A stretch of DNA of 64,000 nucleotides from Escherichia coli (GTDB lineage Bacteria; Pseudomonadota; Gammaproteobacteria; Enterobacterales; Enterobacteriaceae). Each line of letters starts with the position of its first letter. The stretch's first letter is position 1. Location: assembly GCF_016026235.1 (NCBI RefSeq), contig NZ_CP065613.1, one strand, 5' to 3'. Position numbers and translations under genes: made by a program. This document shows positions 18,032 to 35,553 of this stretch, one piece after another. Below the pieces are notes generated by a model that had not been told where the DNA came from, did not search any database, and worked only from the letters and a program-made list of their open reading frames with translations.

Positions 18032-19324
18032 ATGATGAACACGGAAGGTAATAACGGTAACAAACCCCTCGGTCTATGGAATGTCGTTTCCATCGGTATT
18101 GGGGCAATGGTGGGGGCGGGGATCTTCGCGCTGCTGGGGCAGGCTGCGTTGCTAATGGAAGCCTCGACCTGGGTCGCCTTTGCTTTTGGCGGTATTGTGG
18201 CGATGTTTTCCGGTTATGCCTATGCGCGTCTGGGGGCGAGCTATCCCAGCAATGGCGGCATTATCGACTTCTTTCGTCGCGGATTAGGCAACGGCGTCTT
18301 TTCGCTGGCGCTCTCGTTACTGTACCTGTTGACGCTGGCGGTGAGCATCGCCATGGTCGCCCGTGCTTTTGGCGCTTATGCCGTGCAGTTTTTGCATGAA
18401 GGCAGCCAGGAGGAGCACCTTATTTTGCTCTACGCGTTGGGGATCATTGCGGTGATGACGCTTTTCAACTCCTTAAGCAACCATGCGGTAGGGCGGCTGG
18501 AAGTGATCCTCGTCGGCATTAAAATGATGATCCTGTTATTGCTGATTATTGCCGGTGTCTGGTCGCTGCAACCGGCGCATATTTCCGTCTCTGCGCCCCC
18601 CAGCTCCGGTGCGTTCTTCTCCTGTATCGGGATAACCTTCCTTGCCTATGCGGGCTTTGGCATGATGGCGAACGCGGCGGATAAAGTGAAAGATCCGCAG
18701 GTCATTATGCCACGGGCGTTTCTGGTGGCGATTGGCGTTACCACGTTGCTTTACATCTCGCTGGCGCTGGTTTTGCTTAGCGATGTATCGGCATTAGAGT
18801 TAGAAAAATATGCCGATACCGCCGTAGCGCAGGCAGCTTCTCCGCTGCTCGGGCATGTGGGTTATGTGATCGTCGTCATCGGCGCTTTACTGGCGACGGC
18901 TTCAGCCATCAACGCGAACCTGTTCGCCGTGTTTAACATCATGGACAACATGGGCAGCGAACGCGAACTGCCGAAGCTAATGAATAAATCCCTGTGGCGG
19001 CAGAGTACCTGGGGCAACATCATTGTCGTGGTGTTGATTATGCTGATGACGGCGGCATTAAATTTAGGCTCACTCGCCAGCGTTGCCAGCGCCACCTTTT
19101 TGATTTGCTATCTGGCGGTGTTTGTGGTGGCGATCCGCCTGCGTCATGATATTCACGCCTCGTTGCCGATTCTTATCGTAGGTACGTTGGTGATGTTGTT
19201 GGTGATCGTTGGCTTTATCTACAGCCTGTGGTCCCAGGGCAGCCGTGCGTTGATATGGATTATTGGCGCAATCTTACTCAGCCTTATTGTGGCAATGGTC
19301 ATGAAGCGCAATAAAACCGTATAA
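18032..19324 (+). CDS. ybaT: APC-family amino-acid permease
   Basis: 430-aa polytopic ORF, 2 bp downstream of glsA (same operon). Confidence 0.9.
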   Translation: MMNTEGNNGNKPLGLWNVVSIGIGAMVGAGIFALLGQAALLMEASTWVAFAFGGIVAMFSGYAYARLGASYPSNGGIIDFFRRGLGNGVFSLALSLLYLLTLAVSIAMVARAFGAYAVQFLHEGSQEEHLILLYALGIIAVMTLFNSLSNHAVGRLEVILVGIKMMILLLLIIAGVWSLQPAHISVSAPPSSGAFFSCIGITFLAYAGFGMMANAADKVKDPQVIMPRAFLVAIGVTTLLYISLALVLLSDVSALELEKYADTAVAQAASPLLGHVGYVIVVIGALLATASAINANLFAVFNIMDNMGSERELPKLMNKSLWRQSTWGNIIVVVLIMLMTAALNLGSLASVASATFLICYLAVFVVAIRLRHDIHASLPILIVGTLVMLLVIVGFIYSLWSQGSRALIWIIGAILLSLIVAMVMKRNKTV

Positions 19325-28286: not shown

Positions 28287-28300
28287 TGACTGGTGTTAGA

Positions 28301-28603
<303 letters not shown>

Positions 28604-28632
28604 GAACAGTGTGCATTTTGGCAATAAATCTG

Positions 28633-28657
28633 AAACCAACTGTCATGTCGGTTTTTT
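28633..28657. repeat. 25-bp direct-repeat copy A (aaaccaactgtcatgtcggtttttt), 24/25 identical to copy B at 29109-29135
   Basis: Read directly from the sequence; the two copies bracket the small-ORF module. Confidence 0.7.
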
Positions 28658-28658
28658 A

Positions 28659-28687
28659 AAGGCCGAAGGTGGTAAACCTTCGGCCTT
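28659..28687 (-). terminator. Strong hairpin (11-bp stem aaggccgaagg / ccttcggcctt) 17 nt downstream of the small-ORF stop
   Basis: Perfect stem with a 7-nt loop; on the minus strand it is followed by a second weaker hairpin with a U-rich tail (copy A). Confidence 0.5.
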
Positions 28688-28703
28688 AGCTACGTTTCCT
28701 CAG

Positions 28704-28787
28704 TTATTCAATAAACTGACGGATCAGTTCCAGCAGCGCGATTAGCGCCTTAAGCACGATGAGAACTTTATCGAGAAAAGTTTTCAT
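28704..28787 (-). CDS. Candidate 27-aa type I toxin-like peptide (DinQ/TisB-like), MKTFLDKVLIVLKALIALLELIRQFIE
   Basis: ATG with a GGGAG RBS 8 nt upstream; amphipathic single-helix peptide; the LIALLELIR stretch matches my memory of E. coli DinQ; structured 3' end; candidate antisense RNA nearby. Confidence 0.45.
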   Translation of the reverse strand: MKTFLDKVLIVLKALIALLELIRQFIE

Positions 28788-29012
28788 CCGTTGCTCCCTT
28801 AAGGGAGAAAGACAATCACAGCTTACCCTTACGTTGCCTGTAACTATGATTTTCTTCATGTGCTAGATGAGGACTGCCTCTCTCCAAATTAGAGCACCAG
28901 AATCAGCACCACCTGTATCCTGACCAGGACTTAAAAGTACTTTTCCGCACTGCGGTAATCCCTTGAGGCAGTATCACTACTAGCGTCGGGATTGTATCGC
29001 CAACATAGCTGT

Positions 29013-29135
29013 TTGAATATGTAGGCATCCTGACTTATAATTCACTTGCTAGATGAGGACTGTTTCATTTCTGCCCGGAACCACCAAGTCTTGGGCGGAA
29101 AAAATAAAAAAACCGACTGTCATGTCGGTTTTTTT
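29013..29135 (+). ncRNA. Candidate small RNA: TTGAAT-17bp-TATAAT promoter (29013-29041), predicted start near 29048, terminator hairpin plus T7 at 29111-29135
   Basis: Near-consensus sigma-70 promoter and intrinsic terminator bracket about 88 nt with no ORF; the 5' end carries a 16-nt core (tgctagatgaggactg, 29047-29062) identical to 28861-28876 in the presumed leader of the toxin-like ORF. Confidence 0.35.
29109..29135. terminator. Bidirectional A-tract/hairpin/T-tract terminator (also terminates selU); direct-repeat copy B
   Basis: aaaaaaaccgac-tgtcat-gtcggttttttt; 63 nt downstream of the selU stop on the minus strand. Confidence 0.65.
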
Positions 29136-29198
29136 ATATCTGTATTCTGGTGCAACCATTCTGTTCTCACGACAATCGCCGTTTCAGAATACCGCCCA

Positions 29199-30361: not shown

Positions 30362-31288
30362 TTAACTGCGTGGGTTGCCGAAAATTTCTAAAAATCCGCT
30401 GATTTCCGGCCTGCGCTGGGTAAACAAGGTCACAATATCTTCTACCGCTTTGCCGCTGCCAAATTTGCGCCATGCCAGACTCAATGGCGAAGGAGGGCGC
30501 ATCGTTGGGATTACCCGGCTGACCAGTTGTTGATTATCGATCATTGACTGGCAAAGCGATTTTGGCAAAAAACCAATGCCAACGCCCGCCAGATGGGCGG
30601 CGATTTTCGTTTCCATATCGGGAACAATAATCTCTTTTTGACCCGGCAATCGCCAGGCGACGCGTTTGGTTAAGGTGCGGGCGCTGTCTTCAATATTGAC
30701 CGCCGGAAAGCGCCGCAACTGCGCTTCTGTTAACGGCTCTTCAACGTTCGCCAGCGGATGATCCGCCGCCATGACAAATCGCCATTGCACCGATCCTAAG
30801 GGATCAAGACTAAAGGTATTTGCCAGCGCCTCAGTTCCCGTGACGCCGATAGCCAGCGAAAAACCTTCGTACAATAGCGAGTCCCAGACTCCCATATAGA
30901 TTTGTCGAGAGATGTGAAACTGGGTAAAGGGGTAACGTTCATTCAGCCACGCCAGCAACTGGGCGACGGCCTGGGGGTTGTAGAGCAGGTTGTTGATGAC
31001 AATATTCACCTGGCGTTCCACGCCATCATTCACCTGTTGCAGCTCGCTTGGCATACTTTCCAGCCAGCTCAGCCAGTCTCTGGCCTGGGAAAGTAGATGC
31101 TCGCCAGCCGCTGTCAACGTCACGCTACGAGTCGTGCGGAAAAACAGCGCTACTCCGGTATTCTCTTCCAGAAGTTTAATGCGATAACTGATCGTCGCCG
31201 TGGTTTTACATAATCGTTCTGCCGCTTTTGAAAAACTTCCTGTTTCAGCAACCGCAATGAAAGTCCGCAAGGTTTCTGGATCGAACAT
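30362..31288 (-). CDS. allS: LysR-family activator of allantoin catabolism
   Basis: 308-aa ORF with N-terminal HTH and LysR substrate-binding domain; divergent from allA. Confidence 0.9.
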
Positions 31289-31395
31289 CTTCAGGTATCC
31301 CCTTTTAAATCCGCAAGTTGCGTGATTTTCTTATCCTCTGATTTATCAGTATTTTTACATGATAACCCTGTTCAATTTGTGGACTAAATCTAGTT

Positions 31396-31412
31396 TTGGA
31401 AAAATATTCCAA
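31396..31412. promoter_or_regulatory. AllR-type operator TTGGAAAAATATTCCAA in the allS-allA intergenic region
   Basis: Imperfect palindrome with TTGGAA/TTCCAA arms, the same core as the site upstream of gcl. Confidence 0.65.
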
Positions 31413-31517
31413 CTTTTGTATTGATGTTGTTCTCTTAAGGTTTTAGATTGCCTGTTATTGAAACCAAGCTGACCGGTCGGCGGTGGTTGAACGGAATTAT
31501 GTTACAAGGACAAAAAG

Positions 31518-32000
31518 ATGAAACTTCAGGTATTACCGTTAAGTCAGGAAGCCTTTAGTGCTTATGGCGACGTAATCGAAACGCAGCAACGGGATTTTTT
31601 CCATATTAACAATGGCCTGGTGGAGCGTTACCACGATTTGGCGCTGGTTGAGATTCTTGAGCAAGACCGTACGCTTATCAGCATTAACCGCGCGCAACCG
31701 GCGAATCTGCCGCTGACCATTCACGAACTCGAACGTCATCCGCTGGGTACTCAGGCCTTTATCCCGATGAAAGGTGAGGTGTTTGTGGTGGTCGTGGCGT
31801 TAGGTGACGACAAACCAGACCTGTCAACCCTGCGGGCGTTTATTACCAACGGCGAACAGGGAGTGAATTACCATCGTAACGTCTGGCATCACCCACTTTT
31901 CGCCTGGCAGCGTGTCACCGATTTTCTGACCATCGATCGCGGCGGCAGTGACAACTGTGATGTTGAAAGTATTCCTGAACAGGAACTCTGTTTTGCGTGA
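31518..32000 (+). CDS. allA: Ureidoglycolate lyase
   Basis: 160-aa ORF recognised as AllA. Confidence 0.93.
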
Positions 32001-32077: not shown

Positions 32078-32893
32078 ATGACGGAAGTTAGACGGCGCGG
32101 CAGGCCAGGACAGGCGGAGCCTGTGGCACAGAAGGGCGCACAGGCATTAGAGCGGGGAATTGCGATTCTGCAATATCTGGAAAAAAGTGGGGGAAGTTCG
32201 TCGGTTAGCGATATTTCTCTCAATCTGGATTTGCCGCTCTCCACGACCTTTCGCTTGCTGAAGGTTTTACAGGCAGCGGATTTTGTCTATCAGGACAGTC
32301 AGTTAGGCTGGTGGCATATAGGATTAGGTGTCTTTAACGTCGGTGCAGCGTACATCCATAACCGCGATGTCCTCTCCGTCGCCGGGCCGTTTATGCGCCG
32401 CCTGATGTTACTTTCCGGCGAAACGGTCAATGTCGCGATCCGTAACGGCAATGAAGCGGTATTAATTGGTCAGTTAGAGTGTAAATCGATGGTCAGGATG
32501 TGTGCTCCACTGGGCAGTCGTCTGCCACTGCATGCTTCCGGTGCGGGCAAAGCGCTGCTTTATCCGCTGGCGGAAGAGGAGTTGATGAGCATCATTCTGC
32601 AAACCGGTTTGCAGCAGTTTACGCCAACTACGCTTGTGGATATGCCCACTCTGCTGAAGGACCTGGAACAAGCGCGTGAACTGGGCTATACCGTAGATAA
32701 AGAAGAGCATGTTGTAGGTCTGAATTGCATAGCTTCAGCAATTTACGATGATGTAGGTAGCGTTGTTGCCGCTATCTCCATCTCCGGGCCTTCATCAAGA
32801 CTGACAGAAGATCGTTTTGTCAGTCAGGGTGAGCTGGTCAGAGACACCGCCCGCGATATCAGCACGGCGTTGGGACTGAAAGCACATCCATAG
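32078..32893 (+). CDS. allR: IclR-family repressor of the allantoin regulon
   Basis: 271-aa ORF with IclR-type HTH and effector domain. Confidence 0.93.
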
Positions 32894-32945
32894 TGTCTGT
32901 CGCATCCCGCTCTGCGGAGCGGGTTTTTTTGACAAAATTTGAAAG

Positions 32946-32962
32946 TTGGAAAATTTTTCCAA
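32946..32962. promoter_or_regulatory. AllR-type operator TTGGAAAATTTTTCCAA upstream of gcl
   Basis: Perfect 8-1-8 palindrome 21 bp upstream of the gcl ATG. Confidence 0.7.
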
Positions 32963-32982: not shown

Positions 32983-34764
32983 ATGGCAAAAATGAGAGCC
33001 GTTGACGCGGCAATGTATGTGCTGGAGAAAGAAGGTATCACCACCGCCTTCGGCGTTCCGGGAGCTGCAATCAATCCGTTCTACTCAGCGATGCGTAAGC
33101 ACGGCGGTATTCGTCACATTCTGGCGCGTCATGTGGAAGGTGCTTCGCACATGGCGGAAGGTTATACCCGCGCAACGGCAGGGAATATCGGCGTATGTCT
33201 GGGGACTTCCGGTCCTGCGGGCACGGACATGATCACCGCGCTCTATTCCGCTTCTGCTGATTCCATTCCTATTCTGTGCATTACCGGCCAGGCACCGCGC
33301 GCCCGTCTGCATAAAGAAGATTTTCAGGCTGTTGATATTGAAGCAATTGCTAAACCGGTCAGCAAAATGGCGATTACAGTACGTGAAGCGGCGCTGGTGC
33401 CTCGCGTGCTGCAACAGGCATTTCACCTGATGCGTTCTGGTCGTCCGGGTCCGGTACTGGTGGATTTACCGTTCGACGTTCAGGTTGCGGAAATCGAGTT
33501 TGATCCTGATATGTACGAACCGCTGCCGGTCTACAAACCTGCTGCCAGCCGTATGCAGATCGAAAAAGCTGTAGAAATGTTAATCCAGGCCAAACGTCCG
33601 GTGATTGTTGCCGGGGGCGGGGTAATTAATGCTGACGCAGCTGCACTGTTACAACAGTTTGCTGAACTGACCAGCGTTCCGGTGATCCCAACGCTGATGG
33701 GCTGGGGCTGTATCCCGGACGATCATGAACTGATGGCCGGGATGGTGGGTCTGCAAACCGCGCATCGTTACGGTAACGCAACGTTGCTGGCGTCCGACAT
33801 GGTGTTTGGTATCGGTAACCGTTTTGCTAACCGTCATACCGGTTCGGTAGAGAAATACACCGAAGGGCGCAAAATCGTTCATATCGATATTGAGCCGACG
33901 CAAATTGGTCGCGTGCTGTGTCCGGATCTCGGCATTGTCTCTGATGCTAAAGCGGCGCTGACACTGCTGGTTGAAGTGGCGCAGGAGATGCAAAAAGCGG
34001 GTCGTCTGCCGTGTCGTAAAGAATGGGTCGCCGACTGCCAGCAGCGTAAACGCACTTTGCTGCGCAAAACCCACTTCGACAACGTGCCGGTGAAACCGCA
34101 GCGCGTGTATGAAGAGATGAACAAAGCCTTTGGTCGCGATGTTTGTTATGTCACCACCATTGGTCTGTCACAAATCGCTGCGGCACAAATGCTGCATGTC
34201 TTTAAAGACCGCCACTGGATCAACTGTGGTCAGGCTGGTCCGTTAGGCTGGACGATTCCGGCTGCGCTAGGGGTTTGTGCCGCTGATCCGAAACGCAATG
34301 TGGTGGCGATTTCTGGCGACTTTGACTTCCAGTTCCTGATTGAAGAGTTAGCTGTTGGCGCGCAGTTCAACATTCCGTACATCCATGTGCTGGTCAACAA
34401 CGCTTATCTGGGGCTGATTCGCCAGTCGCAGCGCGCGTTTGATATGGACTACTGCGTGCAACTCGCTTTCGAGAATATCAACTCCAGCGAAGTGAACGGT
34501 TACGGCGTCGACCACGTAAAAGTAGCGGAAGGTTTAGGTTGTAAAGCGATTCGCGTCTTCAAACCGGAAGATATTGCGCCAGCCTTTGAACAGGCGAAAG
34601 CCTTAATGGCGCAATATCGGGTACCGGTAGTCGTGGAAGTTATTCTCGAGCGTGTGACCAATATTTCGATGGGCAGCGAACTGGATAACGTCATGGAATT
34701 TGAAGATATCGCCGATAACGCAGCGGACGCACCGACTGAAACCTGCTTCATGCACTATGAATAA
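32983..34764 (+). CDS. gcl: Glyoxylate carboligase (ThDP-dependent)
   Basis: 593-aa ORF from MAKMRAV; ThDP-enzyme fold; track start at 32893 is an upstream extension. Confidence 0.95.
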
Positions 34765-34776
34765 GGGAGATAAATA

Positions 34777-35553
34777 ATGTTACGTTTCTCTGCTAATTTA
34801 TCGATGTTATTTGGAGAATATGATTTTCTCGCCCGTTTTGAGAAAGCTGCGCAGTGTGGTTTTCGCGGCGTTGAATTTATGTTTCCTTATGACTACGACA
34901 TTGAAGAATTAAAACAGGTGCTGGCGAGTAATAAACTCGAACATACGCTGCACAATTTACCGGCGGGTGACTGGGCGGCGGGGGAGCGCGGTATTGCCTG
35001 TATTCCTGGCCGTGAAGAAGAGTTTCGGGATGGCGTAGCAGCAGCGATTCGTTATGCCCGTGCGCTGGGTAATAAAAAAATTAACTGTCTGGTCGGTAAA
35101 ACGCCGGCTGGTTTCAGCAGTGAACAGATTCACGCAACGCTTGTAGAAAACCTGCGTTATGCCGCGAATATGCTGATGAAAGAAGATATTTTATTACTGA
35201 TTGAACCTATTAACCATTTTGATATTCCTGGTTTCCATCTCACCGGAACTCGGCAGGCGCTGAAATTGATTGATGATGTTGGTTGCTGCAATTTGAAAAT
35301 TCAGTATGACATTTATCACATGCAGCGGATGGAAGGTGAATTAACCAACACCATGACTCAGTGGGCTGATAAAATTGGTCACCTGCAAATTGCCGATAAT
35401 CCGCATCGCGGCGAACCGGGAACCGGAGAAATTAATTATGATTATCTCTTTAAGGTAATCGAAAATTCTGACTACAACGGTTGGGTTGGGTGTGAATATA
35501 AACCCCAAACCACCACGGAAGCCGGTTTACGCTGGATGGATCCGTACCGTTAA
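34777..35553 (+). CDS. hyi: Hydroxypyruvate isomerase
   Basis: 258-aa ORF (xylose-isomerase-like TIM barrel). Confidence 0.93.
   Translation: MLRFSANLSMLFGEYDFLARFEKAAQCGFRGVEFMFPYDYDIEELKQVLASNKLEHTLHNLPAGDWAAGERGIACIPGREEEFRDGVAAAIRYARALGNKKINCLVGKTPAGFSSEQIHATLVENLRYAANMLMKEDILLLIEPINHFDIPGFHLTGTRQALKLIDDVGCCNLKIQYDIYHMQRMEGELTNTMTQWADKIGHLQIADNPHRGEPGTGEINYDYLFKVIENSDYNGWVGCEYKPQTTTEAGLRWMDPYR

What the first reader, a model, noticed from the sequence alone, without database searches (positions are those of the whole stretch)
31396..31412. AllR-type operator in the allS-allA divergent region
TTGGAAAAATATTCCAA has the same TTGGAA/TTCCAA arms as the site upstream of gcl, consistent with AllR repression of both divergent promoters.
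Basis: partly seen in the sequence, partly recalled or inferred. Interest (0 to 1): 0.2.

Follow-up and report, generated by a model that had tools for sequence, protein, structure and literature searches.

The report
Known AllR operator between allS and allA

Summary
TTGGAAAAATATTCCAA is at 31396-31412, at the midpoint of the 229-bp gap between divergent allS and allA in an E. coli window. Only one other perfect TTGGAA-N5-TTCCAA occurs in 64 kb, upstream of gcl (0.01 expected by chance). With its flanking bases the site matches the published AllR box KTTGGAAWAWTWTTCCAAC at 19 of 19 positions. A 2026 paper quotes window 31386-31422 verbatim as "the AllR recognition site", citing Rintoul 2002.

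I added an independent test. In 19 other enterobacterial species found through their AllR protein, each has exactly one such palindrome between allS and allA, one before gcl, and none elsewhere in 167 kb. The operator is the best-conserved block of the intergenic region. Across E. coli genomes, all five sampled variant genomes keep the 17-bp core unchanged.

The one open point is the exact promoter geometry, because the primary papers with mapped start sites were not readable. Sequence and conservation suggest the operator centre lies about 52 bp upstream of the allA start.

Verdict: already known; low interest.

The parts
31396..31412 (.). AllR operator core, TTGGAAAAATATTCCAA (6-bp inverted arms, 5-bp A/T centre)
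   Evidence: Scores 32.9 bits with a PWM built only from other species' sites. Highest-information 17-bp window of the intergenic alignment.
31395..31413 (.). 19-bp extended AllR box (published consensus KTTGGAAWAWTWTTCCAAC)
   Evidence: 19 of 19 match to the motif in PMC8222616 Table 1. The last base (31413 C) is G in O157:H7 and some other E. coli lineages.
31386..31422 (.). 37-bp stretch quoted in the literature as the AllR recognition site (attributed to Rintoul 2002). I infer, but could not verify, that this is the footprinted region.
   Evidence: Verbatim identity to AAATCTAGTTTTGGAAAAATATTCCAACTTTTGTATT in PMC13300388.
32946..32962 (.). Second AllR operator, TTGGAAAATTTTTCCAA, upstream of gcl. 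It lies 11 bp downstream of a perfect TTGACA hexamer, and its centre is 29 bp from the gcl ATG.
   Evidence: Conserved in every orthologous locus.
30362..31288 (-). allS, LysR-type activator of the allD and allF operons; divergent target of the operator
   Evidence: NF007501 equivalog, 644 bits, full length. RefSeq annotation.
31518..32000 (+). allA, ureidoglycolate lyase; target of the operator
   Evidence: NF002948 equivalog, 364.7 bits.
32078..32893 (+). allR, the IclR-family repressor that recognises the operator
   Evidence: NF007548 equivalog, 619.3 bits, residues 1-271 of 271. Effector domain identical in family to PDB 1TF1.
31421..31449 (+). Predicted allA core promoter: TTGATG, 17-bp spacer, TAGATT. 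This is inferred, not mapped.
   Evidence: Relaxed sigma-70 scan. Both hexamers sit in conserved blocks at a fixed distance from the operator across genera.
31339..31364 (.). Conserved block on the allS side (TGATTTATCAGTATTTTTACATGATA). It may hold the allS core promoter or another regulator's site; its role is not established.
   Evidence: Conservation profile. Minus-strand -10-like TATCAT at 31364-31359.

Best explanation
The palindrome is the single AllR operator of the divergent allS-allA control region in the E. coli allantoin regulon. AllR is an IclR-family winged-helix repressor encoded 666 bp downstream. One DNA-binding domain sits on each TTGGAA half-site. When glyoxylate is absent, and more so when allantoin is present, AllR occupies the site and holds down transcription leftward into allS and rightward into allA. 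The sister site does the same at gcl. When glyoxylate accumulates, AllR leaves the DNA. allA and the gcl operon are then expressed. allS is also derepressed, and AllS in turn activates the allD and allF operons.

Shown here: the sequence, its rarity, its exact match to the published box, that it is the only such site in the intergenic region, an intact cognate repressor gene, and strong cross-genus conservation of sequence and position.

Taken from the literature: AllR binding, glyoxylate release and repression of both genes.

Inferred: the allA promoter is TTGATG-17-TAGATT at 31421-31449. That puts the operator centre near -52, with the protected region reaching the -35 elements on both sides. 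Repression would then work by blocking RNA polymerase access to upstream promoter contacts, not by covering the -10.
For: The sequence is at the stated coordinates. There are 2 perfect matches in 64 kb against 0.01 expected. Gene identities are confirmed.

The site fits the published AllR motif at 19 of 19 positions. The 37-mer is quoted verbatim as the AllR recognition site from Rintoul 2002. Secondary literature states that AllR binds the allS-allA control region and gcl, that glyoxylate is the inducer, that allantoin is the corepressor, and that allS, allA and gcl are repressed.

Cross-species test, unbiased with respect to the motif: 19 enterobacterial species found by AllR protein similarity each have exactly one palindrome with at most 1 mismatch between allS and allA, one before gcl, and 0 elsewhere in 167,309 bases. 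AllR identity in these species is 66-91%.

Operator information content is 1.86 bits per position against 0.74 for the rest of the intergenic region, and it is the top-ranked 17-bp window. The distance from the operator centre to the allA ATG is 101-115 bp in all species.

A PWM built from the other species scores the two window sites at 32.9 and 33.2 bits. The next best hit in the window scores 11.8, and there is no second site in the intergenic region.

The 30-mer around the site is exact in 4750 of 5403 E. coli genomes, and all 5 sampled variant genomes keep the 17-bp core.
Against: Nothing contradicts the assignment, but there are limits. I could not read the primary binding and footprint papers, so binding and effector response rest on how later papers describe them.

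Transcription start sites are not known to me. A strict sigma-70 scan finds no promoter in the region. A relaxed scan allows an alternative in which TGn-extended -10-like hexamers lie inside the operator on both strands. That would mean classical -10 occlusion instead of upstream blocking.

The site also resembles the box of the paralogue IclR (TGGAAATNATTTCCA) at 11 of 14 specified positions, so sequence alone does not exclude some cross-recognition.
Confidence: 0.92

Rival explanations
1. The site is mainly or additionally an operator for the paralogous repressor IclR, whose box has the same TGGAA-N5-TTCCA geometry. The allantoin genes would then be cross-wired to the glyoxylate-shunt regulator.
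For: The published IclR box TGGAAATNATTTCCA matches window 31397-31411 at 11 of 14 specified positions, and matches the gcl site at 12 of 14. AllR and IclR are close paralogues: AllR scores 247.6 bits on the IclR model, and they form sister clades. Both respond to glyoxylate.
Against: The three mismatches lie in the central positions that distinguish the two motifs. The outer T and A of the AllR arms and the flanking K and C are conserved here across genera, yet they are not part of the IclR box. The site always sits next to allR itself. The papers read attribute regulation of these promoters to AllR only. Cross-binding was not tested.
Confidence: 0.03
2. The operator controls only one of the two divergent promoters. 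The apparent regulation of the other gene would be indirect.
For: Spacing to the allA ATG is tightly conserved at 101-115 bp, while spacing to the allS ATG ranges from 86 to 215 bp. Only the allA side shows a clear conserved -35/-10 pair at a fixed distance.
Against: Literature read here states that AllR represses both allS and allA through this control region, and that glyoxylate raises allS expression to the level seen in an allR deletion strain. There is no second AllR-like site that could serve allS separately. Conserved blocks on the allS side (TGTGG, AATCT, and 31339-31364) also keep register with the operator.
Confidence: 0.04
3. The palindrome is a chance or purely structural A/T-rich feature of a promoter region and has no repressor-binding role.
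For: The intergenic region is A/T-rich, and short A/T-rich palindromes are common in such DNA.
Against: 0.01 matches are expected by chance and 2 are found, both in front of AllR-regulon genes. The arms are essentially invariant across genera whose surrounding DNA is only about 52% identical. There are no other copies in 167 kb of orthologous loci.
Confidence: 0.01

Closest known systems
AllR box of the E. coli K-12 allS-allA intergenic region (Rintoul et al. 2002; Hasegawa et al. 2008; motif KTTGGAAWAWTWTTCCAAC)
   Same: It is the same element. The 37 bp around the site are identical to the sequence quoted from Rintoul 2002, in the same genes and the same position. By an offset taken from K-12-like genomes, it corresponds to about 532,329-532,345 in MG1655.
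   Different: Nothing in the operator itself differs. The window comes from a non-K-12 E. coli strain; the closest complete genome is 99.8% identical over 2.8 kb.
AllR operator upstream of gcl (window 32946-32962)
   Same: Same arms, same 5-bp A/T spacer, same repressor, and equal PWM score (33.2 against 32.9 bits).
   Different: The central bases differ (AATTT against AAATA). The gcl site sits immediately downstream of a perfect TTGACA and about 29 bp from the start codon, so it probably overlaps the core promoter or start site of a single promoter. The allS-allA site is about 115 bp from both start codons and serves two promoters.
IclR box at aceBAK and iclR (TGGAAATNATTTCCA)
   Same: Same family of repressor, the same TGGAA-N5-TTCCA half-site geometry, and glyoxylate as the releasing effector.
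   Different: The central bases differ: 3 mismatches at this site against the IclR consensus. The AllR box is 2-4 bp longer (outer T/A plus flanking K/C). It belongs to a different regulon.
TtgV-operator complex (PDB 2XRO), the solved IclR-family protein-DNA structure found here
   Same: It is a homologue of AllR with a solved DNA-bound form, and a tetrameric repressor in the same family. It serves as a structural model for how AllR may engage DNA.
   Different: Many IclR-family regulators use tandem palindromes 19-21 bp apart. No second AllR-like site exists next to this operator. No AllR-DNA structure appears among the solved structures; only the effector domain (1TF1) does.

Membership tests
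AllR operator (AllR box) | Match to the consensus KTTGGAAWAWTWTTCCAAC | tested here: met
   TTTGGAAAAATATTCCAAC at 31394-31413 contains the 19-mer with 19 of 19 positions matching.
AllR operator (AllR box) | Located in the control region of an AllR-regulon transcription unit (allS, allA or gcl) | tested here: met
   It lies at the centre of the allS-allA intergenic region.
AllR operator (AllR box) | Intact cognate allR gene in the genome | tested here: met
   A full-length 271-aa AllR is at 32078-32893, scoring 619 bits against a cutoff of 406.
AllR operator (AllR box) | Site conserved at the orthologous position in other genomes that carry allR | tested here: met
   19 of 19 species with the full locus have exactly one site in the allS-allA region and one before gcl, with none elsewhere. 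Information content is 1.86 bits per position against a background of 0.74.
AllR operator (AllR box) | Direct, glyoxylate-sensitive binding of AllR protein (EMSA or DNase I footprint) | not testable with these tools
   Papers read here report it as established and cite Rintoul 2002, Walker 2006 and Hasegawa 2008. The primary papers are not held.
AllR operator (AllR box) | Derepression of allS and allA in an allR mutant or with glyoxylate | not testable with these tools
   Reported in PMC12535856 and PMC6090065, citing Rintoul 2002.
IclR box | Match to TGGAAATNATTTCCA | tested here: inconclusive
   11 of 14 specified positions match. The three mismatches are in the central positions (my comparison with the consensus). 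No threshold for IclR binding is available here.
Tandem-palindrome IclR-family operator (two sites 19-21 bp apart) | A second recognisable palindrome one to two helical turns from the first | tested here: not met
   The PWM scan gives no score above 0 anywhere else in either intergenic region.

The most novel reading that the evidence does not exclude
The least ordinary reading still open concerns mechanism, not identity. If the allA promoter is TTGATG-17-TAGATT, as sequence and conservation suggest, and the allS promoter is arranged as its mirror image, then one palindrome centred near -52 of both promoters silences both without touching either -10. This could work through an extended AllR tetramer footprint that blocks the -35 and upstream contacts on each side. 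In addition, the natural flank variant 31413 C>G (O157:H7 and other lineages), which changes the last base of the published 19-bp box, might tune AllR affinity between E. coli lineages.
Probability: 0.25. Interest if true: 0.2.

Novelty: already known. Interest (0 to 1): 0.05.

Why it matters
It matters little as a discovery. The site is one of the two founding examples of the AllR box and has been in the literature since 2002. It has even been used as the DNA input for a 2026 AlphaFold3 model of the AllR-DNA complex.

Its value here is as a positive control. A reader working from raw sequence located and interpreted a real operator correctly, and an independent comparative test, in which loci were chosen by protein and not by motif, recovers it cleanly.

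The cross-genus data add a modest refinement. The 12 arm bases and the spacing to allA are under strong constraint from Escherichia to Providencia. The three W positions of the centre and the flanking bases vary.

Tried and rejected
1. Primary papers. Rintoul 2002, Hasegawa 2008, Cusa 1999 and a genome-wide TSS paper are not held. The mapped start sites and footprint limits could therefore not be checked. A term search for allSp/allAp returned mostly irrelevant papers.

2. Supplementary tables of the ChIP-seq compendium (PMC12059191) are not held as text. The AllR peak list could not be inspected, although the main text treats AllR as a highly specific factor with known sites.

3. The strict sigma-70 scan found no promoter in 31200-31600. 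I used a relaxed scan combined with conservation instead. This gives candidates, not proof.

4. I looked for a second, weaker AllR site 19-21 bp away, as expected for tetramer-binding IclR-family operators. None was found.

5. I looked for more sites in the window with up to 3 mismatches. Only the two known sites appeared. The best further PWM hit (18798-18818, 11.8 bits) lies inside ybaT and was dismissed as chance.

6. Megablast with the 37-mer seemed to lose about 520 genomes. This was a word-size artefact. Blastn with a 30-mer recovered 5403 genomes.

Full report
OBSERVATION. The 17-mer TTGGAAAAATATTCCAA is at window 31396-31412, as reported. It is a perfect inverted repeat of TTGGAA/TTCCAA around a 5-bp A/T centre. 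A pattern search for TTGGAANNNNNTTCCAA finds exactly two matches in the 64-kb window: this one, and TTGGAAAATTTTTCCAA at 32946-32962. Dinucleotide-preserving shuffles give a mean of 0.01 matches, and none of 100 shuffles reaches two. Allowing up to three mismatches adds no further site.

CONTEXT. The window is Escherichia coli. The 2.8 kb around the site matches 5404 of 5426 complete E. coli genomes, the best at 99.8% identity, and is annotated allS, allA, allR, gcl. The ORFs match the NCBIfam equivalog models over full length:
- AllS, 30362-31288, minus strand
- ureidoglycolate lyase AllA, 31518-32000
- AllR, 32078-32893
- glyoxylate carboligase, 32983-34764
- Hyi and GlxR downstream, and MnmH upstream

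The allS-allA intergenic region is 229 bp (31289-31517). The operator centre (31404) is 116 bp from the allS ATG and 114 bp from the allA ATG, essentially the midpoint. The second site lies in the 89-bp allR-gcl gap. Its centre is 29 bp from the gcl ATG, and it starts 11 bp downstream of a perfect TTGACA hexamer and just after the allR terminator hairpin.

WHAT IS ALREADY KNOWN. A comparative study of IclR-family regulators lists the AllR motif as KTTGGAAWAWTWTTCCAAC, citing Rintoul et al. 2002. With its flanks the window site is TTTGGAAAAATATTCCAAC, which fits at all 19 positions. A 2026 paper used 5'-AAATCTAGTTTTGGAAAAATATTCCAACTTTTGTATT-3' as "the AllR recognition site", again citing Rintoul 2002. 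That string is window 31386-31422, base for base.

Other papers I could read agree on the following:
- AllR binds the control region of divergent allS-allA and the gcl promoter.
- Glyoxylate is the inducer and allantoin a corepressor.
- allS, allA and the gcl operon are repressed by AllR.
- Glyoxylate raises allS expression to the level seen in an allR deletion strain.

A ChIP-seq compendium treats AllR as a highly specific factor with a few strong, known sites. The primary papers themselves are not in the library. Binding and effector response are therefore taken from how later papers describe them, not from data I examined.

INDEPENDENT TEST BY COMPARATIVE GENOMICS. I searched one genome per species for AllR relatives by protein similarity, so loci were chosen without reference to the DNA motif. 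This returned 22 enterobacterial loci with AllR identity of 66-100%. They come from Escherichia, Citrobacter, Klebsiella, Raoultella, Superficieibacter, Buttiauxella, Izhakiella, Atlantibacter and Providencia. There was also one unrelated firmicute hit.

In each of the 19 non-Escherichia loci that hold the whole region, there is exactly one TTGGAA-N5-TTCCAA with at most one arm mismatch between allS and allA. There is exactly one upstream of gcl, and none anywhere else in 167,309 bases.

In an alignment of the intergenic regions the operator has a mean information content of 1.86 bits per position (arms 1.93). The rest of the region has 0.74. It is the top-ranked 17-bp window, and identity to E. 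coli is 96% inside it against 52% outside. A position weight matrix built only from the other species' sites scores the two window sites at 32.9 and 33.2 bits. The next best position in 64 kb scores 11.8 and lies inside ybaT. Neither intergenic region has a second position scoring above zero.

This is the signature of a functional protein-binding site recognised by a conserved regulator. It also shows that the allS-allA region has a single operator.

VARIATION WITHIN E. COLI. The 30-mer 31390-31419 is exact in 4750 of 5403 genomes. It has one mismatch in 647 genomes and two in 6. Five variant genomes were fetched, and all keep the 17-bp core. The differences are:
- 31393 G>A
- 31413 C>G, seen in the one O157:H7 genome sampled and in two other strains
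- 31420 A>G
- a 1-bp deletion in the T-run at 31414-31417

The 31413 change alters the last base of the published 19-bp box. Whether it affects affinity is untested.

MECHANISM. The best-supported account is the established one. AllR, an IclR-family repressor encoded in the same cluster, binds the palindrome with one DNA-binding domain per half-site. In doing so it represses both divergent promoters. Glyoxylate releases it. Derepressed AllS then activates the allD and allF operons, which makes this operator the top of a small regulatory cascade.

What remains inferred is the geometry. A strict sigma-70 scan finds nothing. A relaxed scan combined with conservation points to TTGATG (31421-31426), a 17-bp spacer, and TAGATT (31444-31449) as the allA promoter. 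Both hexamers sit in conserved blocks at a fixed distance from the operator in most genera, and the distance from the operator to the allA ATG is held at 101-115 bp. That would place the operator centre near -52, with the quoted 37-bp stretch just reaching the -35.

A mirror-image candidate exists for allS: a -10-like TATCAT at 31364-31359, which is TATTAT-like in other genera. It again gives about -52. The allS side is less certain, however, and its spacing to the ATG varies from 86 to 215 bp. An alternative, also allowed by sequence, has TGn-extended -10-like hexamers inside the operator on both strands. In that case repression would be by direct -10 occlusion. At gcl the operator lies immediately downstream of a perfect -35 hexamer, so overlap with the core promoter is likely. 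Mapped start sites would settle this; they are reportedly in the 2002 paper, which I could not read.

RIVALS. The paralogue IclR has a box with the same geometry (TGGAAATNATTTCCA). The site matches it at 11 of 14 specified positions. Cross-recognition therefore cannot be excluded from sequence. However, the conserved outer and flanking bases are specific to the AllR box, the site always accompanies allR, and no paper read here attributes these promoters to IclR. I give this 0.03.

Control of only one promoter is contradicted by the reported repression of both genes and by the absence of a second site (0.04). A chance palindrome is effectively excluded by the statistics and the conservation (0.01).

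COMPARISON AND NOVELTY. This is not merely like a known element; it is that element. Every membership feature testable here was met: consensus match, location, presence of the cognate repressor, and orthologous conservation. The biochemical features are reported in the literature but cannot be tested with these tools. Among solved structures only the AllR effector domain (1TF1) appears. The related DNA-bound structure found in that search is TtgV (2XRO). Unlike many IclR-family operators, which come as tandem palindromes 19-21 bp apart, this one is solitary.

VERDICT. The finding is already known and its interest is low (0.05). The only open points are second-order: the exact promoter geometry, and whether the natural 31413 C>G flank variant has any effect.

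Noticed in passing
window 31339-31364 and 31379-31391: There are conserved non-coding blocks on the allS side of the operator: TGATTTATCAGTATTTTTACATGATA, then TGTGG and AATCT. They keep register with the operator across genera. Their role is unknown. They could be the allS core promoter, or a site for the unidentified nitrogen-limitation regulator of allS mentioned in PMC12535856.
   Followed up: partly
window 31413 (also 31393, 31420, 31414-31417): There are natural E. coli polymorphisms immediately flanking the operator. 31413 C>G, seen in an O157:H7 genome and two other sampled strains, changes the last base of the published 19-bp AllR box. The 17-bp core was unchanged in all five variant genomes sampled.
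   Followed up: partly
window 32696-32930: The Hfq-associated sRNA AllZ, from the allR 3'UTR, is at MG1655 533,629-533,863 according to PMC8175672. Using an offset from K-12-like genomes, it maps to this stretch. It ends at the terminator hairpin 32906-32923, only about 16 bp before the gcl AllR operator.
   Followed up: partly
window 32929-32962: A perfect -35 hexamer, TTGACA (32929-32934), lies 11 bp upstream of the gcl AllR operator and overlaps the T-run of the allR terminator. The gcl operator therefore probably covers the spacer and -10 region of the gcl promoter.
   Followed up: partly
L008 (CACSKA010000001.1, 312593-321396): An assembly labelled Chryseobacterium sp. 18061 carries an enterobacterial allS-allA-allR-gcl locus nearly identical to that of Citrobacter sp. 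18056 (L020), from the same study. The assembly is probably mislabelled or contaminated.
   Followed up: no
window 18798-18818: This is the best AllR-PWM hit outside the two operators: AGTTAGAAAAATATGCCGATA, 11.8 bits against about 33. It lies inside the ybaT coding region and is most likely chance.
   Followed up: partly
window about 28300-29198 (ybbP-mnmH gap) and 34764-34777: The closest complete genome (NZ_CP065615.1) annotates a DinQ-like type I toxin in the ybbP-mnmH gap, at about window 28704-28787. That genome also carries IS1 insertions within the gcl operon, which the window lacks: in the window, hyi starts 13 bp after gcl ends.
   Followed up: no
E. coli genome collection: 22 of 5426 complete E. 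coli genomes have no match to the allS-gcl segment. Two matches lie on plasmids instead of chromosomes.
   Followed up: no
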